Assembly: GCF_037042905.1 (NCBI RefSeq)
Contig: NC_087245.1
Span: 23,810,001-23,874,000, forward strand
Origin: Lytechinus pictus
Taxonomy: Eukaryota
Length of the DNA stretch: 64,000 nucleotides
Direction of reading: 5' to 3'
Positions 1-61,594 of the stretch are shown here, one piece after another. The notes under the pieces were generated by a model, which was not told the origin of the DNA, did no database searches, and was given only the letters and a program-made list of their open reading frames with translations. Each line of letters begins with the position of its first letter. Position 1 is the first letter of the stretch. The position numbers and the translations under genes are program-made.

Positions 1-1380
1 TGGAGCAGTTTTTGCCCTATAATATTTTATTTCCTTCTGTTTTGGGATAGCTTTCAAATTCTATCTGCATTCAGATTTTGGGTAACAACTTTTCCTGTCA
101 TTTGTAATTCAGGCCCAATAATAGCCAGATGAAGATATATATAAAAAAAAAAAAACTTTGTGAAGAGTTGTAGCTTTCCATCCGTTTGAGTACTGAATAA
201 TTGTCAGTGCCATTGTCTGCTGCAAATTGAAAAAATTAAATTCATAATCTGGAATTTTTTTTTTACGTACGAACCTATGGAAGCACAACCCTCCTGAAAA
301 CGACATGTCACAAAATTTAGGCCATTAAAAAAACTTGATACAGCCTACTGCCAAAACTTGTTATTTTGAGTTTTTCATCGCCAAAATACTCAGCTTTCAA
401 GTGGTGAATACACAGAAATTGTGCAAATTCATAGATGTGCATTATCCCACTTCAAGCAAAAGACAAGATAAAATTAATGACAGGGTCTAGCAGTCCGAAA
501 TTTTGTCATTTGTTTTATTATCATTATATATCGATACCATGCTGACTGTGTGTCAAGCACACAGTGATATTGTTATATTGTTGTATTAGTTTTACTCATC
601 ATCCATGGCTATTTTCAAAAATATTGTTTTTGCTCCAAGTAGTTAGGCCCTACAATATAATTCCTCTTTTTAACCTTTTCTCTCTTTTTTTCTCTGCGAA
701 ATCCTTCTCAACTTCCTACCACTCTGTGTCGTGTAGTGTCAGTTGAAGATACTGTACGCCCCGTATTTCCTTGGGTCTTCCTGTTGATAAGAGGGGCCCC
801 CACTCAGAACTAACTGTGAATTTGATAGGTTTGTCTGTGAAAAGATGGGCAGGAACATGCACAGATATGACGGAGAAAAAAACATTCTTCAGAATAGTGA
901 TTTATGACAATCATAGTAGTGTCACATCTTTGAAAGAAATGAGCGAATTTATGACAAAAGTTACAACGGCTTTCCAGAATACCACACCTGGTGGTCTGAT
1001 ATCCACTTGGTCTACTGATTATGGTATATTGCACTACAGCAAATGAAGAAAGAACAGATCTATAAGCATTTCTTGTAGAACTGCTGGTGTTACACCTCTA
1101 GAGTGGATATTAGGCAAATTGGGTGTTGCCAACTAATGTACCAGTTACTAAAATGTGAAAAGAAGGTCACCAACCAACTGGATTGCTCTAGTTGTCACAT
1201 GCAGGCAGGGTCAAGCAGTTACACCAAGTGCATATGCAGGGGGGGGGGGCTTAAGGGTGCGCTCTCCCCCCCCCCCCCCACGTAAAAGTCCAACTCTTGA
1301 TCCACGCCTGCACACTGTACTTAAAAACTCTTGAGCCTGTTATTTTTTCAGTGCTTTATTGACAAACAAGATTAGACTAA

Positions 1381-2151
1381 GGCTGCGTTTATGCGACCTC
1401 AAGCCAGAATCATGATTTGAATCATGATTTGAATCATGATTCAAAACACAAACATGAATCACAATATCACAGAATCAGCGTTTAGACGACCGTCATTCCA
1501 ATGCTGTTTCTCCTCAGATTCGGGCCAATCCAGTGCGCATCACTAGTGCGCAGTTTGACAGAGGAAGTTTTTCGCACGTGTTTCGGCTCTCGAAAAATCT
1601 TTTGCTTCCAGAATTCAACCTAATTTTGTTTACTTCTATCATATAAGGTCCATATGCTTCTATCCAAAATGGTGTTCGGAAGTGAATTTCAGCGTAGATC
1701 CAATTTAATATTGACACTCTATACTCATCATTGTCTCCAGTTAATTCATTTACTAGAACTTGAAGTTGAAGACATGACCAAAAAATGAAAAGTAGTGGAC
1801 GATGCGAAGACCAACACAGAACTTGAACATGACAAGAAATGCATGCAGAGTAATCATGTACATACAATGAGCATAAGCTTGGCAAGAGTCAAACCGAAAG
1901 CCGTAGCCCGACGACACAGTGAGGTCATATAATCATGATTCAAATCACGATATCGTTTATTCGAACATTTTCGTACGTGATTCTGCAGAAACGTCTTTCC
2001 AAACGCCCCTTTTTTCGTGTTTCATGTTTGTGATTCTAATCATGATTATATTCAATTTCGACTAAACGCAATCGTGATTCTGCAGAATCATGATTTGAAT
2101 CATGATTCAGATCATGATTCTAGGGTGAAAAAGTGGCGGATAAACGCACCC
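1381..2151. mobile_element. PIF/Harbinger-like MITE, present in unit 1 only
   Basis: TIRs GGCTGCGTTTATGCG / CGGATAAACGCACCC, flanked by TAA/TAT. Subterminal GAATCATGATTT repeats. Empty site gactaagttgaac in unit 2 at ~12066-12078. Confidence 0.88.
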
Positions 2152-3923
2152 TATGTTGAACATTCAAAGGAAGCCAATAGTATCAAATTTAAGAGTGGTT
2201 GGGAAGGATTGATGATCTAGGGAAAACTGTGAAATTAATTGTGCTGCCACATTTTGTATTCGTTGAATACAAAATTAATTCAGAGATATGCTTCATATCT
2301 ACATTTACTACAACTTTCTTCTTCATGGATTGTCATAGGCTTTGCTCTATGTTAAATCATGCAATCGATCTCTTTTTTGCATTAAAACAAGGGGATTTTT
2401 CACAAAATTTAATATCTACAACGTCTTAACTAGTGCTTCAACACAAATAACATTATTCAAATTGAAAAACAATGAACCTATAATGTTACAATACATTGCA
2501 GACATGTGTTATGGACCATTTAATTGGCTTGTCATTTGTCCAATTTAGATACATTATATGCAGATCTATGCATAATTTGGTTATATTCATGAGTGACTTT
2601 CTCTGAGTGAATGATCTTACAAGCAGGACTATAATATGAAATATCACAGAAGTATATAAACACCAGTAAATCTAAAACAAATTGGGCATTTCATTTACTT
2701 TTTGTCATATCCTTGTACATGTACATGTATCCTCAAACTACATATTAAAGATAGATACCAGTAGTGGTAATGACCCTCAAAATGAGTTCGAACAGAATCC
2801 AATAAAATACCACCCTTGGAGTGTTTGTATGTATGAATAAAGAATATGCGCCAATTGGCTCTGGAAGAAAATGCATAATTGCTGAGAAACAAGCAAAATA
2901 TTCACAGAATTCCATCAAATGTCTGGTATTTTTCCAGGAAGTATTAATACATTTTCCCATATATGCTATTCTGTGGTAGTGATCATTATAATTATTGGTT
3001 TTTAGCTAGGATTTCATGATTTCACAAAGATAAGTTTGCACTAATGTACCAGATGTACATGTAGATCAATGATGATATTGTGACTATTAACCTTTATTTA
3101 AAAGACTTTCTAATGAAATAATTGTTTGCTGCGTACACTTTCTTTTAAAATTGATGTGCTCATATTTTGTAATAAATACCACCACGCATTGCACATGTAG
3201 ATCATTGCCAGTTCAACATTTTATGTTCTTGTTAACTGTCCATCAGCCCCAGAATTATTTAAAAAAAATCACCTTTGTTTCGCTGCAATGTTAAAACTTA
3301 TTCAATGTTGCAGAATTTGTCAGTAGGTTCCAAAACGTAGCCCCCGAAAATAAGAAATGATGATAATGATTTAATGTCTGGTACCTGTAGGTTTATAGTA
3401 ACTATTTTTAGCATTTTTATCTTATTGAGAAAAGAACAAAGAAAGCCGCTCCAAAGCATAGCATTTTCTTCTTATCAAGAGAAAAGAAGAAAGAAATCCG
3501 CACCAAAGCTTCGCATATTTTTCGTTATGCCGTTCCGTCCACTTTGATCCCCTACAATGAACTGCAATTTTGGTGAAAAGCGGCCGCAGAGCGCTGTCCG
3601 ACCATCGCCTCTGCGCGAGCCCACCCGGTGACCATACCGCTTGGGTAGCTGCATGCATGTATGCCCATTCCATTGTGATGCAAACGCAGGCTACCCGTTC
3701 CAAGGACCCCTGTTTTCACAAACATTTGTAGTTCCGAGGCCCGTTCCGAGGACCCTCCTTTTTACAGCAAGCCCGCTCCAAGGCCCCTGAATTTTGTCTC
3801 GCCCGCTGCATATACCTACCACTTTTTTGGTCGTACCCCCCCCCCCCCCCTCCCCCGGGTATAACAGATTTCATTTATAGTCAAAGGGATAAGCTATACA
3901 AATTTCAAATTGCACTCTGTGTG

Positions 3924-6900
3924 TTAAATACAGTAAATGAATGCCAACATCGATACGAACAATACATAACATGACTTACATGTACTAATAACATTTGAAG
4001 TAGGCATACTTGAAGTTAAAATATTATTAGTACCACATTGAAGTGTATCTTTCCATTCTTTTGCTAATATTGTAGTACTAGTATTAGAACTGTCTTCCAC
4101 ATTCTCTTCCATTTCCTCTACAAGTAAATCTATAGTGAATTTTGTTTGCCCACCTTCATTCTTACTCCAACAGGTGTAAAGACCAATCATATCCTTAGTA
4201 ACGTAACTGATTAGAAGTGCATTATGTGGAAGGATAGAAATTGCTTCTGGTAGGGTGTCTCTTACAGTGTTTAGTTGTTTCCCTTGAAATGTGACTGACC
4301 AGTAAATGTCATTTGATGTTATTATTGGGCAAGGTAACTCAACCATTTTGTCACCAAGGAATGAAAGAAGAGTTTGGTAGGGCTGAGAGCACAGCAGTGG
4401 TCGGCAGGTGAAGCTGTTCTTGGCAGCAAGATCAACCACTGAATAGTTGGCATAAGCTAAAGGTTTGTCACATTTTATGGGGGTGAGTGTGTGTTTCAGA
4501 GCGAAAATAGATTTGATGAGGTCACAATTACATGTCCAAGGATTATTTTCTAATTCAATTTGGATGCTTTTCAAAGTGAAGGTCAGTAAGCCGAGATCAA
4601 GCTTTGTAAGTTGGTTGCCTTGAAGGTAAAGACGAGTCAAGTATGTCTGATGCCGTAATGAGCCAAATTCAAAGAACAGTATAAGGTTATAACTTAAATC
4701 TAGAAACCAGAATTGATGATGCTTGTCAAATGAATCCATTAAGATCAATTTTAGTTTATTTTGAGACAGATTGAGACTGTATGCTTTGTTACTTCTTGGC
4801 AGACAGTATTTTGGGATGGTAGTAATGGCATTGTTTGACAAATCAAGAATGTTTACAGTGTTTATTAACACATTTTGACAGTGGTCCCCAAGGTTGATAG
4901 AAGAGAGATTTAAAAACCATAGATCTGAGAATTCCAAAATGGTTCCTACACTATTACTTGTGTTTCTCACAAAGTGGGCACGAAAAGCCAAATTTTCATT
5001 GAGTTCCAAGTAGAGTAAATTTGGAGTATCTTGAAATATGCTCAAGGATGTGTTTGAAAAGGGTATAGAAGGAAAAGATATGCCCTCTATATCCTGACTT
5101 TCTGAAAACAGGTGATTTGAAATGCGTGTTAAAGGATTTTCACCTAAATAAATAAATTTCAAATCCAGAATGTCTGAGAAAAGACCAGAACGAAGGTGTG
5201 TTATGCGATTCCTTTCCAGCTTCAATTTCATAACTTGTCTTAAACCATAGAATGCTGTAGGATATATGTCAGCTATGTCATTATCGTTCAATTCAAGAAA
5301 TATTAGTGAGGATGCTGATGTGAAAGTGAAATTTGGTATGGAGACAATATGATTCTTATTCAGGTATAGTCCAACCAAATTGGGAGAAATTTTGATGTTT
5401 TTGAAATCAGTCAAGTTGTTGTTGCATGCAAATATATTGGTTCCTGATAGCTCACTTGAATTTGAAGCTCCAAAGGCATTATTATTAACGTTTATATGAA
5501 GAGCTGAAGTAGAAACAACATCAGTGATTCTGTTGCCCTCTGCATTGATATAAACGAGTGTTCTGTCACCAAAGAGGTGATTCAAGTTAAAATGATATAA
5601 AAGATTGTGACTGATATCAAGGCTTTGGAGGGATTGCAAGTTGCGTATATTAATCTCCATGAATAAATTAAATGACAAGTCCAAAGTTCTGAGATGGATT
5701 AGAGTCAAGAAGTCTGGAGAGTTGATGGTTCTGAGTCTGTTATGGCTTATATACAGCTTCTCAAGTGAATAAATGGAATGAAGGAATCTAAGATCAGAAA
5801 TTTTATTTTTGGCCAGGTTTAATACAGCTACATGTAGTCTTGGTGAAGAGTCAAATGTTGAGTTTTCTATAGTGTGAATTATGTTTTCTGATAATTGGAG
5901 ATTTGTAAGTTCAGGAAAAGTTGGAAGGTTTGATAATATTGATATTCTGTTTTTATTAAGCCTGAGCACACGAAGTTGAGGAAGGCAAATCAGGGTTTTG
6001 TTATCCAAAAATGTGATAGAGTTTGAAGACAGTTGCAGCCACTTTAGGTTTAGCAAATTTCCAAACTTTTTCGTGTTCTTAATTTGATTAGAGTTTAAAT
6101 TAATGTATTCTAAATTGTGATGACTATCCATGCCAAAGTCAACATATTTTATTCTATTGAATCCAGCATATAGAGAATACAGGTTAGGAAAGGACGAGAT
6201 GGAAATATTTTGCAGGTCATTCATATCAACATTAAGAATTCTTAGCTTTGTATAATTCCCTCCTTCAAATGTAAAGTCAAATCTTGACAGGCTGTTTTTT
6301 CGAAGGAGAAGACTTTGTGGTGTACTGAAGAAAGAGCATGATAATTGAATAATTTCATTGCCCTTTAAATTGATTGTATCTATGTTTGGAATGTTAGAAA
6401 AGGCAGGTCTTTGCACAACTCTTATATTGTTTTCTTCCAAAAATATGTGCCTGATGTACATCATATTACAGAAGGAAGAGATATCTATAATGTTGTTGTG
6501 CCGGAGTTTGATTGTGTCTAGCAAAGGGACACTTAAGAATACATTGTCACTGATGCGTCTTATGTAGTTGAATTCAAGCGTAAGTATCTTCAGGCTTTTC
6601 ATCGTTTGCAGTCTATCCAAATATTCAATATTGTTGTAGTTAATGTTCAGATGTGATATGGCATTTGGATACGCCAACATCATTGTGTGAAGGTCATTGA
6701 TAGCATTTCCATTCAAATTCAAAATTGATAATTTGAATGGAATTTTTGGTAGACTTGTGAGTTTATTGTATGCCAGTTCAAGTTCTGTAAGGTGTGTTGT
6801 ATTCTGAAGTGTTTGATGATGCCACTCTGTCAGAGAGTTCTGCATGACAGATATTTGTAGAATGATGGGTAACGAACCAAGATATGGAATGCTCTGAAGG

Positions 6901-7232
6901 AAGTTAGAGTGAAGTTCTATGAGCATAAGTTCTCCTGCATTATCAAAGACTTGCTTCTCGATGTAGTGTAGATGGTTATGGGACAGAAGAAGTTCCCTCA
7001 ACCTGTTTTGGCATGAGAATGACCCTCTGTTTAGCGTGGAGATGAAGTTCCTGCGCAAGTTAAGTACACCAACATTACATGGGAGATCCTTTGGAACATC
7101 TTCTAGATAGTGGTCTGTACATGTCATTCTAAAATTCACACCCTGCTGCTCACAGTGACACGGATCCTGACATTGTGAATTACAGCCCCTTCCATAAACA
7201 GTGACTAGTAGTAGGAATATGAAGATATTCAT
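3924..7232 (-). CDS. Intronless LRR-Ig cell-surface protein, copy 1 (1102 aa from the conserved ATG; an in-frame upstream ATG exists at 7295)
   Basis: Uninterrupted 3.3-kb ORF. Signal peptide MNIFIFLLLVTVYGRGCNS, LRRNT CQDPCHC..C, many LxxLxLxxNxI repeats, LRRCT NPWTCNCDL..C, Ig-like domain (LPC..YW..DMIGLYTC), S/T-rich stalk, hydrophobic C-terminus VLFVSMLAFIYCI*. Confidence 0.93.
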   Translation of the reverse strand: MNIFIFLLLVTVYGRGCNSQCQDPCHCEQQGVNFRMTCTDHYLEDVPKDLPCNVGVLNLRRNFISTLNRGSFSCQNRLRELLLSHNHLHYIEKQVFDNAGELMLIELHSNFLQSIPYLGSLPIILQISVMQNSLTEWHHQTLQNTTHLTELELAYNKLTSLPKIPFKLSILNLNGNAINDLHTMMLAYPNAISHLNINYNNIEYLDRLQTMKSLKILTLEFNYIRRISDNVFLSVPLLDTIKLRHNNIIDISSFCNMMYIRHIFLEENNIRVVQRPAFSNIPNIDTINLKGNEIIQLSCSFFSTPQSLLLRKNSLSRFDFTFEGGNYTKLRILNVDMNDLQNISISSFPNLYSLYAGFNRIKYVDFGMDSHHNLEYINLNSNQIKNTKKFGNLLNLKWLQLSSNSITFLDNKTLICLPQLRVLRLNKNRISILSNLPTFPELTNLQLSENIIHTIENSTFDSSPRLHVAVLNLAKNKISDLRFLHSIYSLEKLYISHNRLRTINSPDFLTLIHLRTLDLSFNLFMEINIRNLQSLQSLDISHNLLYHFNLNHLFGDRTLVYINAEGNRITDVVSTSALHINVNNNAFGASNSSELSGTNIFACNNNLTDFKNIKISPNLVGLYLNKNHIVSIPNFTFTSASSLIFLELNDNDIADIYPTAFYGLRQVMKLKLERNRITHLRSGLFSDILDLKFIYLGENPLTRISNHLFSESQDIEGISFPSIPFSNTSLSIFQDTPNLLYLELNENLAFRAHFVRNTSNSVGTILEFSDLWFLNLSSINLGDHCQNVLINTVNILDLSNNAITTIPKYCLPRSNKAYSLNLSQNKLKLILMDSFDKHHQFWFLDLSYNLILFFEFGSLRHQTYLTRLYLQGNQLTKLDLGLLTFTLKSIQIELENNPWTCNCDLIKSIFALKHTLTPIKCDKPLAYANYSVVDLAAKNSFTCRPLLCSQPYQTLLSFLGDKMVELPCPIITSNDIYWSVTFQGKQLNTVRDTLPEAISILPHNALLISYVTKDMIGLYTCWSKNEGGQTKFTIDLLVEEMEENVEDSSNTSTTILAKEWKDTLQCGTNNILTSSMPTSNVISTCKSCYVLFVSMLAFIYCI

Positions 7233-8839
7233 TGTTGTTCTGAGAGAAGGAATTTCCAGATGGAAAAACATGTCAATGAAAGATTTGCATTTCATAGGGA
7301 TCGTCTTCTTTCTCCTGTGGAAATGATTGAGTCAAGCACACAATTATCAACAAATGGTAATCCAACAGTCTTCACTTTCTTGAAATATTGTATTACTCTT
7401 ATTTTTCAATGAAGAGCACTGCTTATGGGTAAGACATGCGTACATCATATGCATTATCAAGAGAATACCAGTGAGAGAATACTGAGACTAATAATAGTGA
7501 ATGTGACTTATATAGTGCCAGATCCACTCTGTAGAGAGCTGGAGGTGTATGAAGAAATTATAAGGTGAACAGAAAAGTTGTAAGAACACTTTTAAAGGAC
7601 TCGACACATACAATTTTCATGTGCATACAAAAAGAATATTAAAGCAAATGATAGTGATTAGAGCAAGCAAAAATTAGACAACAAACAGAGCTCTATTGGA
7701 GGTCATCCAGTAGGCGTTAAGACCCAACCAAAAAATAAATAGTAATAATGATCATTATAAAAATGAGGAAAATGATACTTCTCTCTTTAAGGTTGTAATT
7801 AGCTCTGGGAACGAGTAATCCAGAATTTATGCCTCTAGCATTTCAAAGTATTAATTTTTTAATTGCAGAAGATGAATGCTTTTTAGTATATTGATTGAAT
7901 GTTCTTCCGCAAAAATGCATTGTGAATAATAATAATAATAATAATTGGCTTTAACATCACGCTTTATGAATCTACAATTGCTCAAAGCGCTTCTCAATTA
8001 CAAAGCCTGCTTTAATGTACGTATGTATGATAAATACTCATCAGGATTTGATACAAAAATGACATCGGCGGGTAATTAATTTAATTAAATTTCTTTTGCT
8101 TGGAGGGAATTCTGATTACCATTAGAGCATGATCGGTTCATCACGGATGGACATTTGATCGATTTTCAAATTTTGAAGGCTTGTAACAAATTAAGAATAA
8201 GATGAGCAAGGTTTGTTTGTGTATTATAGTGAAAGGTACTAGGACAAAGTATACTGCATGATTAAAAAAGTAGGTTGCCATGGTTACCTACAAACACAAG
8301 GATCCACTAAACGTTCCTTTTCACAAGATGAAAATAGTGTTTTAAAATTTGTTGTACATTTCTATTGTTTCTATCTAAACAACTTAACATTGACTAACAA
8401 TTGTTGATGCAAATATAACACTCCTGTCTCTTTAATAGCTTTTATGTCAAGCATATTGAATTCTAAACCAATATCTAACTTCTGAGAGAATCGCAAATAT
8501 TTTTCATCATGGATGGACATCACGGACGGACACAGTTAACCCACATCAGGAGGACCTTGTAAGAAGTTCTTGTTATTTTTTTGGAGGAGGTGAACAAATG
8601 CTAAATTTGATGAATTGTACATTTCTGAATATGATTGAACAGTGTTGGTTGCACAATCAAGTTGCTGCAAGTTGAACCAACTTGATTGAAATGGTAGCAT
8701 GCTAGACTTTTATCTCAACTTATGATTGCTTTAAGCACAAAATCAAATGTTCTAATGTTCATTGTTTTATTTTCAGATTATAGACGTGGTACCATGTACA
8801 TGTACATGAAGCTGATCAATGATGTACGGTACATGTTAA

Positions 8840-9246
8840 GGCCACCACACACCTTACGACTGTTCGTGATCCGATTTTGGAACAAATCGCAATTTGCTCA
8901 TTTTCTGAAAGTGTGAATGGAACATATCATTTTATTTGAGGTTAAAATTAATTGAAAGAATACTACCATTTTGAAAGATTGCAAGCCTTTATTTTGGAGT
9001 AAAGGTCAAATTAGTTTCAAATCGTAGCCAATCGTACGACTGCTATGACGTCATTACGACTAGATATTAAATTCGCTTTTATTCTAAGAAGGATGATAGC
9101 ATAGTCACAGATTTGAACATAGGTATTCGTACAATGATTTAGAACATTACACAGTAATATATTCCAAGTCTCAATATTAGCATCAAATTCTACTACATTT
9201 TATTCTGAAATCGAGTCGCAGACCAATCGTAAGGTGTGCGGTCGCC
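8840..9246. mobile_element. Harbinger-like MITE
   Basis: TIRs GGCCACCACACACCTTACGA / TCGTAAGGTGTGCGGTCGCC, flanked by TTAA on both sides. Second copy at 40906-41710. Confidence 0.85.
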
Positions 9247-9290
9247 TTAACATGTTCATGAATCATAATATCTCATGATCAAATATGTTA

Positions 9291-10256
9291 TAGTAGAGTG
9301 GATAAGCAGAACAATTGTGCAAATTATGACTTAAGCATGAAACTTTCACAAGTATTAGTATATGCCGTAAGATTTATTTTAAAGATGGGAGGTAAATTTT
9401 TAAATGCTATTTTTGGCTGTTGCCATGGCAACGGATTAATTTCTCCAAAATAACATACATTCCCATGTAAATGGTAAATAAAAATGATATACAGTAGATG
9501 ACCAAAATGATAATTTTCAGGCTCCCATTTGAAAACATGAAATTTAGAAATATTCAAGATCACCAAGATAGTTCCAATTGGTCTGTTGCCATGGCAACGG
9601 CTTGTTTTTCCCCAGAAAAATAAAAAAATTGATTAAAAAACCGTTGTAGAATATGATTTATCTTTAATTTCCCCTAATTCTACAATGTTAAAGATATTTT
9701 GGTTGCTAAATGTGTAAATTACATCTCAAGCCATTGCCATGGCAACCAAATAACATCTAATTTACAAAAATAACATGGTTGACAAGACAATGGACAGGTG
9801 GAAAATACAGTTAGAATTGACTTAATCTGTATGCTTAAGTTTTGACCCCCTCATTTGAACAAAAAATACAGAAGTGTTCTGCAGGAGTTCTTTATAAAGG
9901 TAAAAAAATATGTTGCCTTGGTAATGCTTGAATTTTCAGTTATTTATATATATATATTGGAGCTATCTTGGTGATCTTGAATATCTGTAAATTTCATATG
10001 TATTCAATTGGGAGCCTGAAAATCATCATTTTGGTCATCTATATCATGTTTATTTACCATTTACATGGGAATGTATGTAATTTTGGAGAAATTAATCCGT
10101 TGCCATGGCAACGGCCGAAAATGGCATTTAAAAATTTACCTCCCATCTTTAAAATAAATCTTACGGCATATACATGTACTTATACTTGTGAAAGTTTCAT
10201 GCTTTAGTCAAAATTTGCACAATTGTTGTGATTTTTGGAGCTTATCCGCTCTACTA
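9291..10256. mobile_element. Non-autonomous DNA transposon with long imperfect TIRs (Academ-like TAGTAGAG termini)
   Basis: TAGTAGAGTGGATAAGC..GCTTATCCGCTCTACTA, ~280-bp inverted arms, 3-bp TTA TSD. Confidence 0.8.
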
Positions 10257-10493
10257 TTAATACATGTACTAGGCGTTAATTTTCCAAGAACAAATTTGCC
10301 TTAAAGTCTGTTGATCTATCTTTTTTTTTCTGCCTCAGGAATATAAAAAAAAAAAAATTAAAAGGTTGCTGATTCCCGATTCTTGTTTGGTAGATCAAGT
10401 ATGGCCACAACATTTTGTCAGAGGCTCTCTTGAATATCCCTCTTTTGCCCACTTGTAATGGAGACACCATAACACCAACAGCAGTCATGTATG

Positions 10494-11172
10494 TAGACCC
10501 TGACCGGACCCAAAATTGTAATTGATAAAATCATATACCAATCAAAGTCTTATTAAACTTCTTAACACAGCAATGCAAGCTTTATATATTTTCACTGTTT
10601 ACTAGCTGAGCAATTTGCCTAAAATTAGCTCCAATTACTGGGCTTCAGAAAAAGGCAACCTTGAATTAAGGAAATCTACAGCTTTGGAGCAGTTTTTGCC
10701 CTATAATATTTTATTTCCTTCTGTTTTGGGATAGCTTTCAAATTCTATCTGCATTCAGATTTTGGGTAACAACTTTTCCTGTCATTTGTAATTCAGGCCC
10801 AATAATAGCCAGATGAAGATATATATTAAAAAAAAAAACTTTGTGAAGAGTTGTAGCTTTCCATCCGTTTGAGTACTGAATAATTGTCAGTGCCATTGTC
10901 TGCTGCAAATTGAAAAAATTAAATTCATAATCTGGAATTTTTTTTTTACGTACGAACCTATGGAAGCACAACCCTCCTGAAAACGACATGTCACAAAATT
11001 TAGGCCATTAAAAAAACTTGATACAGCCTACTGCCAAAACTTGTTATTTTGAGTTTTTCATCGCCAAAATACTCAGCTTTCAAGTGGTGAATACACAGAA
11101 ATTGTGCAAATTCATAGATGTGCATTATCCCACTTCAAGCAAAAGACAAGATAAAATTAATGACAGGGTCTA
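10494..11172. mobile_element. hAT-like MITE shared by both duplication units (partial copy at 1-489)
   Basis: TIRs TAGACCCTG / CAGGGTCTA; TSD not clean. Confidence 0.6.
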
Positions 11173-14100
11173 GCAGTCCGAAATTTTGTCATTTGTTTTA
11201 TTATCATTATATATCGATACCATGCTGACTGTGTGTCAAGCACACAGTGATATTGTTATATTGTTGTATTAGTTTTACTCATCATCCATGGCTATTTTCA
11301 AAAATATTGTTTTTGCTCCAAGTAGTTAGGCCCTACAATATAATTCCTCTTTTTAACCTTTTCTCTCTTTTTTTCTCTGCGAAATCCTTCTCAACTTCCT
11401 ACCACTCTGTGTCGTGTAGTGTCAGTTGAAGATACGCCCCGTATTTCCTTGGGTCTTCCTGTTGATAAGAGGGGCCCCCACTCAGAACTAACTGTGAATT
11501 TGATAGGTTTGTCTGTGAAAAGATGGGCAGGAACATGCACAGATATGACGGAGAAAAAAACATTCTTCAGAATAGTGATTTATGACAATCATAGTAGTGT
11601 CACATCTTTGAGAGAAATGAGAGAATTCATGACAAAAGTTACAACGGCTTTCCAGAATACCACACCTGGTGGTCTGATATCCACTTGGTCTACTGATTAT
11701 GGTATATTGCACTACAGCAAATGAAGAAAGAACAGATCTATAAGCATTTCTTGTAGAACTGCTGGTGTTACACCTCTAGAGTGGATATCAGGCAAATTGG
11801 GTGTTGCCAACTAATGTACCAGTTACTAAAATGTGAAAAGAAGGTCACCAACCAACTGGATTGCTCTAGTTGTCACATGCAGGCAGGGTCAAGCAGTAAC
11901 ACCAGGTGCATATGCAGGGGGGGGGGCGGGCTTAAGGGTGCGCCCCCCCCCCTGGATAATCAGCCCCCCCTCGTAAAAGTCCAACTCTTGATCCACGCCT
12001 GCACACTGTACTTAAAAACTCTTGAGCCTGTTATTTTTTCAGTGCTTTATTGACAAACAAGATTAGACTAAGTTGAACATTCAAAGGAAGCCAGTAGTAT
12101 CAAATTTAAGAGTGGTTGGAAAGGATCGATGATCTAGGGAAACCTGTGAAATTAATTGTGATGCCACATTTTTTAATCGTCGAATACAAAATTAATTAAT
12201 TCAGAAATTTGCTTCATATCTACATTTACTACAACTTTCTTCTTCATGGGTTGTCATAGGCTTTACAGCTATGTTAAATCATGCAATCGATCTCTTTTCT
12301 TCATTAAAACAAGGGGATTTTTCACAAAATTTAATATCTACAACGTCTTAACTAGTTCCTCAACACAAATAACATTATTCAAATTGAAAAACAATGGACC
12401 TATAAAGTTACAGTACATTGCAGACATGTGTTATGGACCACTGAATTGGCTTGTCATTGGTCCAATTAAGATACATTATTATGCAGATCTACGCATAATT
12501 TTGTTATGTTCATGAGTGACTTTCTCTGAGTGAATGATCTTACAAGCAGGACTATAATATGAAATATCACAGAAGTATATAAACACCAGTAAATCTAAAA
12601 CAAATTGGGCATTTCATTTACTTTTGTCATATCCTTGTACATGTATCCTCAAACTACATATTAAAGATAAATACCAGTAGTGGTAATGACCCTCAAAATG
12701 AGTTCGAACAGAATCCAATAAAATACCACCCTTGGAGTGTTTGTATGTATGAATAAAGAATATGCGCCAATTGGCTCTGGAAGAAAATGCATAATTGCTG
12801 AGAAACAAGCAAAATATTCACAGAATTCCATCAAATGTCTGGTATTTTTCCAGGAAGTATTAATACATTTTCCCACATAGGCTATTCTGTGGTAGTGATC
12901 ATTATAATTATTGGTTTTTAGCTAGGATTTCATGATTTCACAAAGATTAGTTTGCACTAATGTACCAGATGTAGATCAATGATGATATTGTGAGTATTAA
13001 CCTTTATTTAAAAGACTTTCTAATGAAATAATTGTTTGCTGCGTACACTTTCTTTTAAAATTGATGTGCTCATATTTTGTAATAAATACCACCACGCATT
13101 GCACATGTAGATCATTGCCAGTTCAACATTTTATGTTCTTGTTAACTGTCCATCAGCCCCAGAATTATTTTTTTAAAATCACCTTTGTTTCGCTGCAATG
13201 TTTAAACTTATTCAATGTTGCAGAATTTGTCAGTAGGTTCCAAAACGTAGCCCCCGAAAATAAGAAATGATGATAATGATTTAATGTCTGGTACCTGTAG
13301 GTTTATAGTAACTATTTTTAGCATTTTTATCTTATTGAGAAAAGAACAAAGAAAGCCGCTCCAAATCATAGCATTTTCTTCTTATCAAGAGAAAAGAAGA
13401 AAGAAATCCGCACCAAAGCTTCGCATATTTTTCGTTACGCCGTTCCGTCCGCTTTGATCCCCTACAATGAACTGCAATTTTGGTGAAAAGCGGCCGCAGA
13501 GCGCTGTCCGACCATCGCCTCTGTGCGAGCCCACCCGGTGCCCGTACCGCCGGGGTAGCTGCATGCAGGCTACCCGTTCCAAGGACCCCTGTTTTCACAA
13601 ACATTTGTAGTTCCGAGGCCCGTTCCGAGGACCCTCCTTTTTACAGCAAGCCCGCTCCAAGGCCCCTGAATTTTGTCTCGCCCGCTGCATATACCTACCA
13701 CTTTTTTGGTCGTACCCCCCCCCTCCCCCGGGTATAACAGATTTCATTTATAGTCAAAGGGATAAGCTATACAAATTTCAAATTGCACTCTGTGTGTTGA
13801 ATACAGTAAATGAATGCCAACATCGATACGAACAATACATAACATGACTTACTAATAACATTTGAAGTAGGCATACTTGAAGTTAAAGTATTATTAGTAC
13901 CACATTGAAGTGTATCTTTCCATTCTTTGGCTAATATTGTAGTACTAGTATTAGAACTGTCTTCCACATTCTCTTCCATTTCCTCTACAAGTAAATCTAT
14001 AGTGAATTTTGTTTGCCCACCTTCATTCTTACTCCAACAGGTGTAAAGACCAATCATATCCTTAGTAACGTAACTGATTAGAAGTGCATTATGTGGAAGG

Positions 14101-17100
14101 ATAGAAATTGCTTCTGGTAGGGTGTCTCTTACAGTGTTTAGTTGTACCCCTTGAAATGTGACTGACCAGTAAATGTCATTTGATGTTATTATTGGGCAAG
14201 GTAACTCAACCATTTTGTCACCAAGGAATGAAAGAAGAGTTTGGTAGGGCTGAGAGCACAGCAGTGGTCGGCAGGTGAAGCTGTTCTTGGCAGCAAGATC
14301 AACCACTGAATAGTTGGCATAAGCTAAAGGTTTGTCACATTTTATGGGGGTGAGTATGTGTTTCAGAGCGAAAATAGATTCGATGAGGTCACAATTACAT
14401 GTCCAAGGATTATTTTCTAATTCAATTTGGATGCTTTTCAAAGTGAAGGTCAGTAAGCCGAGATCAAGCTTTGTAAGTTGGTTGCCTTGAAGGTAAAGAC
14501 GAGTCAAGTATGTCTGATGCCGTAATGAGCCAAATTCAAAGAACAGTATAAGGTTATAACTTAAATCTAGAAACCAGAATTGATTATGCTTGTCAAATGA
14601 ATCCTTTAAGATCAATTTTAGTTTATTTTGAGACAGATTGAGACTGTATGCTTTGTTACTTCTTGGCAGACAGTATTTTGGGATGGTAGTCATGGCATTG
14701 TTTGACAAATCAAGAATGTTTACAGTGTTTATTAACACATTTTGACAGTGGTCCCCTAGGTTGATAGAAGAGAGATTTAAAAACCATAGATCTGAGAATT
14801 CCAAAATGGTTCCTACACTATTACTTGTGTTTCTCACAAAGTGCTCACGAAAAGCCAAATTTTCATTGAGTTCCAAGTAGAGTAAATTTGGAGTATCTTG
14901 AAATATGCTCAAGGATGTGTTTGAAAAGGGTATAGAAGGAAACCATATGCCCTCTATATCCTGACCTTCTGAAAACAGGTGATTTGAAATGAGTGTTAAA
15001 GGATTTCCACCTAAATATATACATTTTAATTCTAGAATATTTGAGAAAAGACCAGAACGAAGGTGTGTTATGCGATTCCTTTCCAGATTCAATTCCACAA
15101 CTTGTCTTAAACCAATGAATGCTGTAGGATATATATCAGCTATATCATTATCGTTCAATTCAAGAAATATTAGTGAGGATGCTGATGTGAAAGTGAAATT
15201 TGGTATGGAGACAATATGATTCATATTCAGGTATAGTCCCACCAAATTGGGAGAAATTTTGATGTTTTTGAAATCAGTCAAGTTGTTGTTGCATGCAAAT
15301 ATATTGGTTCCTGATAGCTCACTTGAATTTGAAGCTCCAAAGGCATTATTATTAACGTTTATATGAAGAGCTGAAGTAGAAACAACATCAGTGATTCTGT
15401 TGCCCTCTGCATTGATATAAACGAGTGTTCTGTCACCAAAGAGGTGATTCAAGTTAAAATGATGTAAAAGATTGTGACTGATATCAAGGCTTTGGAGGGA
15501 TTGCAAGTTGCGTGTATTAATCTCCATGAATAAATTAAATGACAAGTCCAAAGTTCTGAGATGGATTAGAGTCAAGAAGTCTGGAGAGTTGATGGTTCTG
15601 AGTCTGTTATGGCTTATATACAGCTTCTCAAGTGAATAAATGGAATGAAGGAATCTAAGATCAGAAATTTTATTTTTGGCCAGGTTTAATACAGCTAGTC
15701 TTGGTGAAGAGTCAAATGTTGAGTTTTCTATAGTGTGAATTATGTTTTCTGATAATTGGAGATTTACAAGTTCAGGAAAAGTTGGAAGGTTTGATAATAT
15801 TGATATTCTGTTTTTATCGAGCGTGAGTTCACGAAGTTGAGGAAGGCAAATCAGGGTTTTGTTTTCCAAAAATGTGATAGAGTTTGAAGACAGTTGCAGC
15901 CACTTTAGGTTTAGCAAATTTCCAAACTTTTTCGTGTTCTTAATTTGATTAGAGTTTAAATTAATGTATTCTAAATTGTGATGACTATCCATGCCAAAGT
16001 CAACATATTTTATTCTATTGAATCCAGCATATAGAGAATACAGGTTAGGAAAGGACGAGATGGAAATATTTTGCAGGTCATTCATATCAACATTAAGAAT
16101 TCTTAGCTTTGTATAATTCCCTCCTTCAAATGTAAAGTCAAATCTTGACAGGCTGTTTTTTCGAAGGAGAAGACTTTGTGGTGTACTGAAGAAAGAGCAT
16201 GATAATTGAATAATTTCATTGCCCTTTAAATTGATTGTATCTATGTTTGGAATGTTAGAAAAGGCAGGTCTTTGCACAACTCTTATATTGTTTTCTTCCA
16301 AAAATATGTGCCTGATGTACATCATATTACAGAAGGAAGAGATATCTACAATGTTGTTGTGCCGGAGTTTGATTGTGTCTAGCAAAGGGACACTTAAGAA
16401 TACATTGTCACTGATGCGTCTTATGTAGTTGAATTCAAGCGTAAGTATCTTCAGGCTTTTCATCGTTTGCAGTCTATCCAAATATTCAATATTGTTGTAG
16501 TTAATGTTCAGATGTGATATGGCATTTGGATATGCCAACATCATTGTGTGAAGGTCATTGATAGCATTTCCATTCAAATTCAAAATTGATAATTTGAATG
16601 GAATTTTTGGTAGACTTGTGAGTTTATTGTATGCCAGTTCAAGTTCTGTAAGGTGTGTTGTATTCTGAAGTGTTTGATGATGCCACTCTGTCAGAGAGTT
16701 CTGCATGACAGATATTTGTAGAATGATGGGTAACGAACCAAGGTATGGAATGCTCTGAAGGAAGTTAGAGTGAAGTTCTATGAGCATAAGTTCTCCTGCA
16801 TTATGAAAGACTTGCTTCTCGATGTAGTGTAGATGGTTATGGGACAGAAGAAGTTCCCTCAACCTGTTTTGGCATGGGAATGACTCTCTGTTTAGCGTGG
16901 TGATGAAGTTCCTGCGCAAGTTAAGTACACCAACATTACATGGGAGATCCTTTGGAACATCTTCTAGATAGTGGTCTGTACATGTCATTCTAAAATTCAC
17001 ACCCTGCTGCTCACAGTGACACGGATCCTGACATTGTGAATTACAGCCCCTTCCATAAACAGTGACTAGTAGTAGGAATATGAAGATATTCATTGTTGTT

Positions 17101-17632
17101 CTGAGAGAAGGAATATCCAGGTTGAAAAAGCTTTCAATGTAAGATTGCAATGATAGGGACCATCTTCTTTCTCATGTGGAAACGTCAAACACAAGGATAT
17201 CAACAAAGGGTAATCCAACGGTCTTCACGTTCTTGAAGTATTGTATTACTCTATTTTCCATGAAGAGCACTGCTTATGAGCAAAGAAATGACTACATCAT
17301 GATATGCATTGTCTAGAGAGCTACAAGTAAAGAATCCAGAGACTAAGGATATTAAATGAATGATACATGCGACTTATAAAGTGCCAGATCCACTCTGTAG
17401 AGAGCTCTAGGTACGTAAAGAAACTGAAGTGAACAGAAATTTTTAAACTGAACAGAGATGCAGTTTTTATGTCTTCAGGAAGTCTATTCCAACGGAGTAG
17501 CTTTCCGAAGACATACAAAATCACATACATGTAGATACATGAAGAATAGGCACTTCTCTAAAAAAAAAAATGCCGCTAATTATCTCTGGGAAAAAGATTA
17601 TCCAGAATTTATGCCTCTAGTATTTCAAAGTA
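10685..17632. repeat. Tandem segmental duplication, unit 2 (homology resumes at 22845-22915 after a TE insertion)
   Basis: Colinear with 1-7850. 22845-22915 (ttaattgcaggagatgattgct..gcaaaaatgca) matches 7851-7920. Confidence 0.93.
13767..17093 (-). CDS. Intronless LRR-Ig cell-surface protein, copy 2 (1108 aa)
   Basis: Paralog of 3924-7232, ~97% aa identity by manual alignment. The track start at 17150 is TTG; the ATG shared with copy 1 is at 17093. TAA>CAA extends the C-terminus by QHTECNLKFV. Confidence 0.93.
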   Translation of the reverse strand: MNIFIFLLLVTVYGRGCNSQCQDPCHCEQQGVNFRMTCTDHYLEDVPKDLPCNVGVLNLRRNFITTLNRESFPCQNRLRELLLSHNHLHYIEKQVFHNAGELMLIELHSNFLQSIPYLGSLPIILQISVMQNSLTEWHHQTLQNTTHLTELELAYNKLTSLPKIPFKLSILNLNGNAINDLHTMMLAYPNAISHLNINYNNIEYLDRLQTMKSLKILTLEFNYIRRISDNVFLSVPLLDTIKLRHNNIVDISSFCNMMYIRHIFLEENNIRVVQRPAFSNIPNIDTINLKGNEIIQLSCSFFSTPQSLLLRKNSLSRFDFTFEGGNYTKLRILNVDMNDLQNISISSFPNLYSLYAGFNRIKYVDFGMDSHHNLEYINLNSNQIKNTKKFGNLLNLKWLQLSSNSITFLENKTLICLPQLRELTLDKNRISILSNLPTFPELVNLQLSENIIHTIENSTFDSSPRLAVLNLAKNKISDLRFLHSIYSLEKLYISHNRLRTINSPDFLTLIHLRTLDLSFNLFMEINTRNLQSLQSLDISHNLLHHFNLNHLFGDRTLVYINAEGNRITDVVSTSALHINVNNNAFGASNSSELSGTNIFACNNNLTDFKNIKISPNLVGLYLNMNHIVSIPNFTFTSASSLIFLELNDNDIADIYPTAFIGLRQVVELNLERNRITHLRSGLFSNILELKCIYLGGNPLTLISNHLFSEGQDIEGIWFPSIPFSNTSLSIFQDTPNLLYLELNENLAFREHFVRNTSNSVGTILEFSDLWFLNLSSINLGDHCQNVLINTVNILDLSNNAMTTIPKYCLPRSNKAYSLNLSQNKLKLILKDSFDKHNQFWFLDLSYNLILFFEFGSLRHQTYLTRLYLQGNQLTKLDLGLLTFTLKSIQIELENNPWTCNCDLIESIFALKHILTPIKCDKPLAYANYSVVDLAAKNSFTCRPLLCSQPYQTLLSFLGDKMVELPCPIITSNDIYWSVTFQGVQLNTVRDTLPEAISILPHNALLISYVTKDMIGLYTCWSKNEGGQTKFTIDLLVEEMEENVEDSSNTSTTILAKEWKDTLQCGTNNTLTSSMPTSNVISKSCYVLFVSMLAFIYCIQHTECNLKFV

Positions 17633-34590: not shown

Positions 34591-37500
34591 TATGAGGCGC
34601 CGAATGTACCAATATTATATAGAACAATTATTTGTTATATAATCATTATTTATTAAATAATAACTATTATTTATATATAATTTACATTTTATTTGTAAAT
34701 AACTACTATTATATAAAATATCATTTCTAATTATTTATATATAATTCCAAGTAATACTTCATTATTTGTAAATAATAATAGTTCGACATTCCATTATTTA
34801 TAAATAATGATTATTTGTTTTTCATTATTTATAAATAATGATTATTTGTTTTTCATTATTTATGAATAATGATTATTTGTTTTTCATTATTTATAAATAA
34901 TGATTATTTGTTTTTCATTATTTATAAATAATGATTATTTGTTTTTCATTATTTACAAATAATGATTATTTGTTTTTCATTATTTATAAATAATGATTAT
35001 TTGTTTTTCATTATTTATAAATAATGATTATTTGTTTTTCATTATTTATAAATAATGATTATTTGTTTTTCATTATTTACAAATAATGATTATTTGTTTT
35101 TCATTATTTATAAATAATGATTATTTGTTTTTCATTATTTATAAATAATTTGTTGAGTTTTCCATTATTTATAAATAATGATTATTTGTTAAATAATGAA
35201 AACGTCTACTTCATTATTTATAAATAATTTTTTCGAGTGCACCATTATTCTCATTATTTATAAATAATCATTATTTAATGTTCGAGTTTTCCATTATTTA
35301 TAAATAAAGATTATTTGTTAAATAATGAAATATCTACTTCATTATTTATAAATAATAATTTTGTTTCAATATCCCATTATTTATAAATAATCATTATTTA
35401 TAAACAATTTTTACAGTTTGCCATTATATACAAATAATCATTATTTATATACAAATAACCATTATTTATTAAATAATGCCATTATTTATTAAATAATGCC
35501 ATTATTTATTAAATAATGCCATTATTTATTAAATAATGCCATTATTTATTAAATAATGGAAAACTCGCTATAACATGCAAATGTGGGACCGCCCATGATA
35601 TGAATATTCATGATGCGATTTCCTTTTTCGTGATTTTTCTTCACAAATTTTTGTCCACTTCCTCTTCATAATGACATTTCTTGAAGCAATTTTCTAGGGA
35701 TATGGTCTGATTGTAATATTCTTCATTTTCTATATAACTTCGTCTTCGTAGAAATATCAAAAAGTGTAATTTTATACGATTTTTCCTACAGTTCACAATC
35801 CCCATAGGCGCGCGTGTACGGTAGGGACAACCGGTGATTCGACGGAGTGCTCTTCATCGAAATACTACGTTGGTTGGTCCCCGGAAGTGGCGGGCGGAAT
35901 TTAGCCCGAATCCTCGATGGAAGTCGATCAAGTGCATATGAGCTGAGAGAGTGAAATATCAGTGTACTTGCATGTACAGGCCCTTCTACTTTTTATAAAT
36001 ATTTCTTGTTGCTTTTTTTGTTAAGTTAATTTTTCCTGGTGTAGAGATAAGTTTCAGTTCTAATAATGCACTTCAAATACATTTTGGAGTGTCTGTTTGG
36101 GGCGATTTTACCCTAGCCCCAAAATGCTCGCAACGACAATACGGGGGCATGATGACCCCTAAATTTTTAAAAACTTATTTTTCTATTGAAAATTATCACA
36201 AAATTCATCAAAAGTGTGCACGAAAGCCTTCGTATTTCACTTTTAAAACTCCAAAAAGTGCCCAAATGACAAGCTTGGTCGCTTCGCTGTGTCGCTTTCA
36301 ACTTGAGAACGTTTACGCGTCTGCTTCCCCCCCCCCCCTCCTCCGAAAGAAATTCTGTATACGGCCATGCTCTAAAGAGCCTGGCACATTGATTTATGTA
36401 TACTTTCATTTTCATTATTTTTATCTCATTATCAACATGGCCTTACGCAGAATTTTTTCCAGGGGGGCCGGGGCCGGAGCATGACGCGCGTAAACTTTCT
36501 CAAAAAAATCTTGAAAGCGAGACAGCCACGGGACCAAGCCGAAATGACAAGCTTGGTCGCTTCGCTGTCTCGCTTTCAACTTGAGAACGTTTACGCGCGT
36601 CTGCCCCCACCCCCCGAAAGAAATTCTGTGAACGGCCATGCTCAAAAGAGCATATGGCACATTGATTTATATGTACTTTTCATTTTCATTATTTTTATCA
36701 CATTATCATCATGGCCTTACACAGAATTTTTACCGGGGGGGGGGGGGGGGAGCAGCTAGGACGCGCGTTAAGTTTCTCAAAAAAATCTTGAAAGCGAGAC
36801 AGCGACGCGACCAAGCTCAAATGACAAGCTTGGTCGCTTCGCTTTTTCAAGATTTTTATGAGAAAGTTTACGCGCGTCCTGCTCCCCCCACCCCCCCCCC
36901 CCCGGAAAAAATTCTGCGTAAGGCCATGATGATAATGAGATAAAAATAATGAAAATGAAGTATACATAAATCAATGTGCCAGGCTCTTTAGAGCATGGCC
37001 GTATACAGAATTTCTTTCGGAGGAGGGGGGGGGGGGGAAGCAGACGCGTAAACTTTCTCAAGTTGAAAGCGACACAGCGAAGCGACCAAGCTTGTCATTT
37101 GGGCACTTTTTGGAGTTTTAAAAGTGAAATACGAAGGCTTTCGTGCACACTTTTGGTGAATTTTGTGATAATTTTCAATAGAAAAATAAGTTTTTAAAAA
37201 ATTAGGGGTCATCATGCCCCCGTATTGTCGTTGCGAGCATTTTGGGGCCAGGGTGAAATCGCCCCAAACGCCTCAAACAGACACTCCAAAATGTATTTGA
37301 AGTGCATTATTAGAACTGAAACTTATCTCTACACCAGGAAAAATTAACTTAACAAAAAAAGCAACAAGAAATATTTATAAAAAGTAGAAGGGCCTGTACA
37401 AGTACACTGATATTTCACTCTCTCAGCTCATATGCACTTGATCGACTTCCATCGATGATTCGGGCTAAATTCCGCCCGCCACTTCCGGGGACCAACCAAC

Positions 37501-46816: not shown

Positions 46817-47148
46817 TAGTAGAGCGGATTAGCCGAACAATTGTGCAAATTATGACTAAAGCATGAAACTTTCACAAGTACTAGTATATGCCGTAAGATT
46901 AATTTTAAAGATGGGAGGTAAATTTATAAATGCCATTTTCGGCCGTTGCCATGGCAACGGATTAATTTCTCAAAAAATAACATACATTCCCATGTAAATG
47001 GTAAATAAACATGATATAGATGACCAAAATGATAAATTCAGGCTCCCAATTGAATACTAATGAAATTTAGAAATATTCAAGATCACCAAGATAGTTCCAA
47101 TTGGTCCGTTGCCATGGCAACGGCTTGTTTTTCCCCAGAAAAATACAA
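46817..47148 (+). mobile_element. Truncated left arm of the 9291-10256 family
   Basis: High similarity to 9291-9620. Confidence 0.85.
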
Positions 47149-58083: not shown

Positions 58084-58241
58084 ATACCACCATGGATTTG
58101 CTAGATGCAGCTGCTAAAGGAGACACTGAGATGGTCCGGAAGGCAGTATCCAAGAACCCTTATGGCTCAAAGGGCAATGATCAGGCAATGCAGAAAGCTG
58201 TGCAGTACGGCCAGACAGAAGCTCTACAAGAGCTCCTCAAT
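58084..58241 (+). CDS. Ankyrin-repeat protein gene, coding exon 2 (DTTMDLLDAAAKGD..QELLN)
   Basis: ttttcag acceptor, gtaagt donor, ankyrin-like helices. Confidence 0.88.
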
Positions 58242-58933: not shown

Positions 58934-59135
58934 GCTGGAGCAGACCCAGATATCAAAGTTCATGGGGGTCGTACCATGCTCCATGAGGCCTGCGTTGGAG
59001 GGCACAATGAAGTTCTGAAGCTCCTTCTGATTCATGTGACTGATATGGATGCAACAAATAGCCTCGGCCAGACGGCTTGCCATACAGCTGCTTACCATGG
59101 CGAGCTGGGTTGCATGAAACTCTTAGAAGAAGCAG
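58934..59135 (+). CDS. Ankyrin-repeat protein gene, coding exon 3 (AGADPDIKVHGGRTMLHEACVGGH..GQTACHTAAYHG..)
   Basis: Canonical ankyrin consensus; AG/GT boundaries with consistent phases. Confidence 0.92.
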
Positions 59136-61564: not shown

Positions 61565-61594
61565 GTAAATTACCCTTTGGTTGAAACAAAAAGT

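What the first reader, a model, noticed from the sequence alone, without database searches (positions are those of the whole stretch)
3924..17093. Tandem intronless LRR-Ig receptors without a signalling domain and with patchy diversification: candidate immune or recognition family
Seen: two ~1100-aa single-exon genes (SP, LRRNT, ~30 LRRs, LRRCT, Ig, stalk, hydrophobic tail) with no TIR or other cytoplasmic domain. I count ~32 aa replacements by hand. Eleven fall within ~55 residues (FYGLRQVMKLKL/FIGLRQVVELNL, SDILDLKFIYLGENPLTRI/SNILELKCIYLGGNPLTLI, SQDIEGISF/GQDIEGIWF), and three more in one beta-strand (LRVLRLNKN/LRELTLDKN). Two stretches of ~150-175 aa are identical and silent changes appear few. 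Established: the x positions of LxxLxLxxN form the concave ligand-binding face, and intronless tandem LRR receptors are typical of expanded invertebrate immune families. Inference: a diversifying surface-receptor family with many more LRRs than typical LIG proteins. The window starts mid-unit, so the array may be longer.
Basis: partly seen in the sequence, partly recalled or inferred. Interest (0 to 1): 0.7.

Follow-up and report, generated by a model that had tools for sequence, protein, structure and literature searches.

The report
Sea urchin giant LRR-Ig surface proteins
Two near-identical neighbouring sea-urchin genes encode an unusually long leucine-rich-repeat surface protein, probably lipid-anchored, from a small unnamed urchin family; their patchy differences look like swapped gene segments rather than proven selection, and an immune-recognition role is plausible but untested.

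Summary
Observation confirmed. Two minus-strand ORFs (A 3924-7232, B 13767-17093) encode signal peptide, LRRNT, 37 LRRs, LRRCT, one Ig, a Cys-motif stalk and a GPI-signal-like tail, with no TIR. B matches Lytechinus pictus RefSeq XP_063956428, misnamed 'toll-like receptor 3'.

The 32 replacements cluster, but so do silent changes (hotspot pS 0.105 > pN 0.056; overall dN/dS 0.7-0.85). A third copy shares a 90-residue patch with L. variegatus rather than with A and B. The patches are therefore best read as a crossover/conversion mosaic; positive selection between A and B is not shown.

The family is small (about 4-8 gene models per species), tandemly amplified in L. pictus, S. purpuratus and Diadema, and no collinear member was found outside echinoids. 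Pooled over three sets of close relatives, the concave face varies more than the exposed convex face (p 2e-4), but not in A versus B. Five probable S. purpuratus members are weak markers of phagocyte clusters in a published coelomocyte atlas.

Best reading: a lipid-anchored recognition or co-receptor protein of phagocytes (0.5). Ten paper searches and this scan's notes returned no description of the family.

The parts
3924..7232 (-). Copy A coding sequence, 1102 aa from the ATG shared with B (an in-frame upstream ATG at 7295 adds 21 aa and is absent in B)
13767..17093 (-). Copy B coding sequence, 1108 aa; same sequence as RefSeq XP_063956428 (L. pictus) up to residue 1080
16935..17093 (-). B: signal peptide (aa 1 to about 19, by hydrophobic pattern only) and LRRNT (aa 20-53)
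   Evidence: LRRNT E 0.0012, below cut-off; four invariant Cys
14403..16934 (-). B: 37 leucine-rich repeats (aa 54-897), one solenoid without an internal LRRCT-LRRNT cluster
14271..14411 (-). B: LRRCT cap (aa 895-941, four invariant Cys)
13983..14258 (-). B: I-set-like Ig domain (aa 946-1037) with an extra invariant Cys946 at its start
13899..13931 (-). B: family motif A-x-x-W-x-x-x-[LI]-x-C (aa 1055-1064) in the stalk; predicted to pack back on the Ig domain, possibly as a Cys946-Cys1064 disulfide (inferred)
   Evidence: A, W, C invariant in 9 of 9 rows; pLDDT 88 there against 48 in the linker before it
13800..13844 (-). B: terminal hydrophobic stretch (aa 1084-1098), GPI-signal-like
14934..15245 (-). 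B: divergence hotspot, LRR26-30 (aa 617-720); silent and replacement changes both raised against A
5067..5378 (-). A: the same hotspot
15816..15830 (-). B: LRR17 strand with three replacements against A (aa 422, 424, 426; A at 5955-5969)
15924..16199 (-). B: patch aa 299-390, identical in A and B but differing from copy C at 15 of 90 residues, where C follows L. variegatus
1..3923 (-). 3' flank of A, 1.8% diverged from the 3' flank of B up to the window edge
10685..13766 (-). 3' flank of B, matching A's; holds the probable acceptor (12654) of the RefSeq intron that starts at 13852
7246..7575 (-). 5' flank of A, 18% diverged from B's; TATA-like box 282 nt before the ATG; pyrimidine-rich AG 7 nt before the ATG
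17107..17439 (-). 5' flank of B, older paralogous type; homology to A ends beyond it except for one 55-nt block
1382..2155 (.). 774-nt element with short terminal inverted repeats, present in A's flank and absent from B's

Best explanation
A and B are recent tandem copies in a small echinoid-restricted family of very long LRR-Ig surface glycoproteins. Shown: domain order, no cytoplasmic domain, several copies, mosaic divergence. Inferred mechanism: the protein enters the secretory route, its terminal hydrophobic stretch is replaced by a GPI anchor (or it is shed or secreted), the Ig domain clamped by the W-x3-L-x-C motif props up a 37-repeat solenoid, and the concave face binds non-self or altered-self surfaces. 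Without a tail it must hold ligand for, or signal through, a partner receptor, in the way CD14 serves TLRs (analogy from general knowledge). The array grows by unequal crossing-over (A = the 5' flank of a C-type copy plus a body and 3' flank shared with B) and is reshuffled by conversion, which moves old divergent patches between copies. Variation is tolerated or favoured on the concave face while the LRR core is conserved.
For: Identity switches from 82% to 98.5% at the coding start and continues for at least 3.9 kb downstream. Copy C (XP_063954636, same 44.3-Mb record) carries A's 21-residue upstream frame. Hotspot has pS 0.105 against 0.010 elsewhere. 12 of 15 sites grouping A+B against C+L. 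variegatus lie in one 92-residue patch. An older-assembly model mixes A and B states. Terminal hydrophobic tails occur in the full-length members that carry the stalk motif, apart from two truncated RefSeq models. Pooled concave x positions vary at 100 of 666 against 72 of 825 exposed convex positions (p 2e-4); core positions at 3 of 185 in A/B/C. Repeated tandem growth with truncated models in S. purpuratus and four near-identical accessions in Diadema. Five probable S. purpuratus members give 10 marker rows, all in phagocyte clusters 0, 6 and 11.
Against: No ligand, localisation or challenge data. GPI anchoring rests on pattern only. A versus B: dN/dS below 1 and no concave enrichment; A/B/C alone p 0.20 (all x positions) or 0.047 (positions 2, 3, 5). 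Hotspots do not coincide between subfamilies (Spearman 0.12, -0.02, 0.06). The concave test is on amino acids only and has no control LRR family. Coelomocyte counts are low (mostly 0-25 reads, at most 144), only LOC115920403 is mapped to its protein by name and it is not in the marker rows seen, 10 of the 12 clusters visible are phagocytes, each cluster lists about 2,800 markers, and no other tissue was compared. Two RNA runs with the best holder's species label show almost no reads on the coding sequence (6% of each run read, tissue unknown).
Confidence: 0.5

Rival explanations
1. A non-immune adhesion or matrix-binding LIG-type protein (working like ISLR/Meflin or chaoptin) whose recent duplicates drift nearly neutrally; patches come from conversion alone.
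For: Closest solved LRRCT-Ig structures are neuronal LIGs: NGL1-3, LINGO-1, SALM2. ISLR/Meflin is GPI-anchored, secreted in part, with its ORF in one exon, and marks stromal cells. A/B ratio outside the hotspot is 0.94-1.14. The family is small.
Against: Paralogs are only 46-60% identical within camarodont urchins, copies are gained and truncated repeatedly, and the concave face is the least conserved surface (38% against 43% exposed convex), unlike what a fixed self ligand would predict (general knowledge).
Confidence: 0.3
2. The A/B hotspots are direct products of positive selection on a ligand-binding site.
For: Replacements cluster (p<1e-4). Site 667 has four residues in four sequences and five in five with copy D; 666, 691, 717 and 424 have three. 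7 of 43 changed codons carry two changes, all replacing the residue.
Against: Silent divergence is raised ten-fold in the same window and exceeds replacement divergence. Sites with three or more states are not significantly concave (9 of 222 against 10 of 437, p 0.22). Adjacent double changes against the flank: p 0.09. Selection could still have preserved the patch; two DNA sequences cannot tell.
Confidence: 0.2
3. A is an assembly artefact: the second haplotype of B or C placed in tandem.
For: 1.55% coding and 1.8% flank divergence is in the range of allelic difference in urchins (general knowledge). A's exact protein is not in the collection while B and C are. No listed contig or read spans the region.
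Against: The 5' flanks differ by 18% and then not alignable, with a sharp border at the coding start. A differs from C at 15 of 90 residues in one patch and from B at 12 of 109 in another. Both flank types appear without a mismatch in run X1 (426 and 571 nt), which may however be the source sample. Tandem copies recur in other urchins.
Confidence: 0.12
4. The main product is a secreted protein made by splicing out the hydrophobic tail, or a single-pass protein with almost no tail.
For: RefSeq B ends before the tail, matching a GTAAGT donor at 13852 and an acceptor at 12654. One Diadema model also stops in the stalk. A remote L. pictus relative (XP_063969309) has a true membrane helix with 22 residues behind it.
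Against: The read-through tail is hydrophobic in paralogs only about 50% identical. No joint at 13852 among the joints listed (coverage was close to nil, 51 joints not shown).
Confidence: 0.15

Closest known systems
ISLR/Meflin (LIG family, PMC4770287)
   Same: Signal peptide, LRRNT, LRRs, LRRCT, one Ig, GPI site, also secreted; whole ORF in one exon.
   Different: Five LRRs against 37; no evidence of orthology (Atlas score 0.88 is a lead only); Meflin is not a multicopy mosaic family as far as the passages read show.
LRR_Ig/FN3 class of extracellular LRR proteins (PMC2235866): NGL/LRRC4, LINGO, SALM, LRIG
   Same: LRRCT-Ig unit matches NGL1-3, LINGO-1 and SALM2 in sequence or fold.
   Different: 81 of 87 catalogued members in worm, fly, mouse and human are type I membrane proteins and 2 are GPI-linked; this family has a much longer solenoid, a W-x3-L-x-C stalk motif and rapid copy turnover. 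L. variegatus has a separate LRIG3-like protein.
Sea urchin TLR multigene family (PMC3367398)
   Same: Simple exon structure, lineage-specific expansion, variation concentrated on concave strands.
   Different: TLRs have 21-25 LRRs, a membrane helix and TIR, and 68-253 copies; here 37 LRRs, an Ig domain, no TIR, fewer than ten models per species. RefSeq's 'toll-like receptor 3/6/9' names are misleading.
Chaoptin/artichoke-type giant LRR adhesion proteins
   Same: Very long extracellular LRR array; source of many RefSeq names and of the best non-family hits.
   Different: Matches cover LRRs only (about 25-35% identity, 30-60% of the query), no Ig or stalk motif, not collinear.
CD14 and lamprey VLRB (recalled, apart from CD14's architecture)
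   Same: GPI-linked or secreted LRR recognition proteins without a signalling domain.
   Different: No Ig domain in either; VLRs are assembled somatically from cassettes, and no loose LRR cassettes were found elsewhere in the window.

Membership tests
LRR_Ig (LIG) class | Signal peptide plus LRRNT-LRR-LRRCT ectodomain | tested here: met
   signal peptide by pattern only
LRR_Ig (LIG) class | Ig or FN3 domain and no other extracellular domain | tested here: met
   (below cut-off)
LRR_Ig (LIG) class | Membrane attachment by helix or GPI | tested here: inconclusive
   terminal hydrophobic stretch conserved; no GPI predictor available; RefSeq B model lacks it
ISLR/Meflin or another named neuronal LIG subfamily | Orthology: collinear match and similar repeat number | tested here: not met
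   37 against five LRRs; no vertebrate or insect protein among the collinear hits that could be named
Toll-like receptors | TIR domain after a membrane helix | tested here: not met
   no TIR in Pfam scans; ORFs end 0-10 residues after the hydrophobic stretch; none of the motif-bearing relatives lists PF01582/PF13676
Toll-like receptors | 21-25 LRRs (scc type) or internal cysteine cluster (mcc type) | tested here: not met
   37 uninterrupted LRRs
Positively selected immune receptor families | dN/dS above 1 at ligand-face sites | tested here: inconclusive
   pairwise A/B 0.71-0.85, x positions 0.81-1.0; concave enrichment pooled p 2e-4, A/B p 1.0; no DNA for other copies
Positively selected immune receptor families | Expression in immune cells and response to challenge | tested here: inconclusive
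   low counts and phagocyte marker rows for probable S. purpuratus members; no infection data seen
Variable lymphocyte receptors | Incomplete germline gene with flanking LRR cassettes | tested here: not met
   complete ORFs; no other LRR pieces in the window by tblastn

The most novel reading that the evidence does not exclude
An undescribed echinoid family of GPI-anchored 37-LRR/Ig pattern-recognition proteins on phagocytes, whose binding patches are older than the Lytechinus species split and are kept and shuffled between tandem copies by conversion under balancing selection, with a spliced secreted form as a soluble counterpart.
Probability: 0.2. Interest if true: 0.65.

Novelty: new variant of a known kind. 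Interest (0 to 1): 0.4.

Why it matters
Urchin immune inventories are built on TIR, NACHT and SRCR domains, so a recognition family without a signalling domain and hidden under wrong automatic names (TLR3, slit, artichoke, IGFALS, chondroadherin) would be missed. If it is a phagocyte co-receptor it adds a CD14/VLR-like class to deuterostome innate immunity, testable in a laboratory urchin. If not, it is still a clean case of a mosaic tandem array in which clustered replacements mimic selection.

Tried and rejected
Whole-genome copy count: no genome is held for this window, so copy numbers come from protein collections and are lower bounds. Metagenome scan for DNA of relatives: 5 loci, 24-31% identity, generic LRR proteins, not used. 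Expression: no RNA holder listed; X21 and X22 gave almost no coding coverage, X1 and X14 are contigs of uncertain kind and also cover non-coding DNA; none of this is used as evidence of expression, and contig depth was not taken as copy number. kappaB-like word just before both ATGs: 8 matches in the window against 6.8 expected, rejected. Excess of double-change codons: inconclusive against the flank. Full-length fold search returned TLR8/13/3 and TOL-1 with TM 0.25-0.38, which shows only a generic LRR solenoid. Atlas hits were all under 0.9. The first concave test mixed buried convex residues and was redone without them. Supplements of PMC12616046 and PMC11574069 held none of the gene ids or names searched; PMC11688612 has no LRR passage. 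Look-ups of this scan's notes by sequence and near the place found nothing. No complex prediction was run, as no partner is known.
Full report
Observation. The window holds two long ORFs, both on the minus strand: A (3924-7295, shared start at 7232) and B (13767-17093). Self-comparison shows the duplicated unit covers each coding sequence and its 3' flank up to the window edge. Divergence is 1.55% in the coding sequence (51 of 3297), 1.81% in the 3' flank (56 of 3093) and 18% in about 320 nt of 5' flank (58 of 318), beyond which homology ends.

Anatomy. Each protein has a signal-peptide-like start, LRRNT, 37 LRRs, LRRCT, one Ig domain, a stalk and a 15-residue hydrophobic end. Pfam finds LRR families only in the full proteins, no TIR. 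The Ig domain is below Pfam's cut-off but matches LRRC4/4B/4C by sequence, and the model of the LRRCT-Ig-stalk part (mean pLDDT 76.5) matches NGL1-3, LINGO-1 and SALM2. The full model is one solenoid, confident over most repeats and poor in LRR24-25, the LRRCT and the stalk. Two extra cysteines, at the Ig start and in an A-x-x-W-x-x-x-[LI]-x-C stalk motif, are invariant in 9 of 9 diverse members; the motif is predicted with pLDDT 88 after a disordered linker, so a clamp onto the Ig domain is inferred, not shown. The tail ends 0-10 residues from the stop in the motif-bearing full-length members, the pattern used to assign GPI anchors by inspection in PMC2235866.

Identity and family. B is RefSeq XP_063956428 of Lytechinus pictus up to residue 1080; that model is spliced at a donor at 13852, probably to an acceptor at 12654, and loses the tail. 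A's exact protein is not in the collection under either start. Further L. pictus models are C (XP_063954636, 95-97% identical, same 44.3-Mb record, with A's upstream frame), D (XP_063970574, about 85%), XP_063953228 and XP_063955612, on other records. L. variegatus has at least four named models on one chromosome-length record and a fifth model (XP_041486009) whose species label was cut in the listing; S. purpuratus has seven, several truncated, on one 33.6-Mb record; Diadema antillarum has four near-identical accessions on one contig. A, B and C form a supported clade sister to or beside the L. variegatus orthologue. The profile search of 1.84 billion representatives listed 150 hits; of ten looked up, the named collinear ones are urchin proteins, one is an insect LRR protein without the Ig part, and three collinear ones are unnamed. 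Two further searches found no collinear non-urchin member, but each scored only 8000 candidates, so absence outside echinoids is not proven.

What the patches are. Replacements cluster (p<1e-4), but silent changes cluster in the same window (p 0.008-0.012). In LRR26-30, pS is 0.105 and pN 0.056; outside, 0.010 and 0.010 (the window was chosen after seeing the data, the permutation test allows for that). Overall dN/dS is 0.71, or 0.85 with a transition bias of 2. A second patch appears with copy C: in residues 299-390 A and B are identical, differ from C at 15 of 90, while C differs from L. variegatus at 6 of 90; 12 of the 15 sites that group A+B against C+L. variegatus lie there, and at three of them (319, 355, 375) A and B keep the state of most outgroup paralogs. 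So some segments have genealogies older than the species split. With the sharp identity border at the coding start and C's A-type upstream frame, this fits unequal crossing-over plus conversion. C and the L. variegatus sequence are gene models whose DNA I could not check.

Selection. For A against B, concave x positions changed at 11 of 222 and exposed convex positions at 13 of 275 (p 1.0). For A/B/C, 23 of 222 against 19 of 275 (p 0.20); for an unnamed trio P0003/P0056/P0058, 42 against 27 (p 0.004); for P0008/P0065, 35 against 26 (p 0.04); pooled p 2e-4. Site 667 has five residues in five Lytechinus sequences. This resembles the concave-face variation reported for urchin TLRs (PMC3367398), but it rests on amino acids, has no control family, and hotspots do not recur between subfamilies.

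Expression. Laid RNA runs X21 and X22 show almost nothing on the coding sequence; this is uninformative. In the supplements of PMC13043383 (S. purpuratus coelomocytes), LOC115920403, tied by name to family member XP_030832011, has 0-6 reads per bulk sample. Five more genes are assigned to the family by matching product names and accession order only: LOC115920323, LOC115920324, LOC115920404, LOC105437420 and LOC105437192. They have low bulk counts and give 10 marker rows, all in clusters 0, 6 and 11, which the authors call phagocytes; all five are listed for cluster 11. LOC115920402, LOC115920403 and LOC115920356 gave no marker row. The table was cut after cluster 11, 10 of those 12 clusters are phagocytes, lists are long, and near-identical paralogs are not independent. 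This shows probable expression in immune cells, not specificity.

How it most likely works. Shown: a tail-less extracellular LRR-Ig protein in a small, turning-over, mosaic family. Inferred: GPI-anchored or shed display on phagocytes, ligand capture on the concave face, signalling through a partner (0.5). Rivals are a non-immune adhesion protein (0.3), direct positive selection on the A/B hotspot (0.2), a mainly secreted or single-pass form (0.15) and a haplotype artefact for A (0.12); these are not exclusive.

Comparison and novelty. It meets the LRR_Ig class definition, fails TLR and VLR membership, and is no orthologue of a named LIG. It most resembles ISLR/Meflin in layout with seven times the repeats. 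Ten searches of the paper library listed no description of this family; subscription papers, including the original purple-urchin immune gene survey (recalled, not seen), are outside the library. Papers seen: passages of PMC3367398, PMC2235866, PMC4770287, PMC11688612 and PMC13043383; supplement rows of PMC13043383 (two files cut); supplement searches without hits for PMC12616046 and PMC11574069; all others as search listings only. CD14 and VLR mechanisms and urchin heterozygosity are recalled. Verdict: a real, annotated-but-misnamed, apparently undescribed variant of a known protein class; interest 0.4.

Noticed in passing
window 34591-38747: 4.2-kb foldback element: about 2-kb arms at 95-99% complementarity, outer parts built of 31-nt and 20-nt AT-rich tandem units, core of about 277-nt repeats; resembles urchin TU-type foldback transposons (recalled).
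   Followed up: partly
window 58050-61636 (+): Three probable exons of an ankyrin-repeat gene (Pfam Ank hits, best E 1e-14).
   Followed up: partly
window 9304-10233 and 8835-9245: Two non-coding elements with terminal inverted repeats in the spacer between the genes; the first has a partial copy at 46817-47156, the second draws many reads from elsewhere in the genome.
   Followed up: no
window 16313-16773 and 14019-14877: Contigs of runs X1 and X14 differ from B by 5-8% (37 of 461; 21 of 398), pointing to a more distant copy, perhaps D.
   Followed up: partly
window 7249-7257 and 17110-17118: kappaB-like 9-mers just upstream of both start codons; not above chance for the window.
   Followed up: yes
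proteins P0083 and P0234 (L. pictus model and an unnamed-in-listing hit): Models made of repeated N-terminal pieces of this family (LRRNT plus first LRRs), suggesting a further locus with tandem gene fragments.
   Followed up: no
protein P0220 (XP_063969309): Remote L. pictus relative with the same long LRR-Ig layout but a true membrane helix and a short tail, without the stalk motif.
   Followed up: partly
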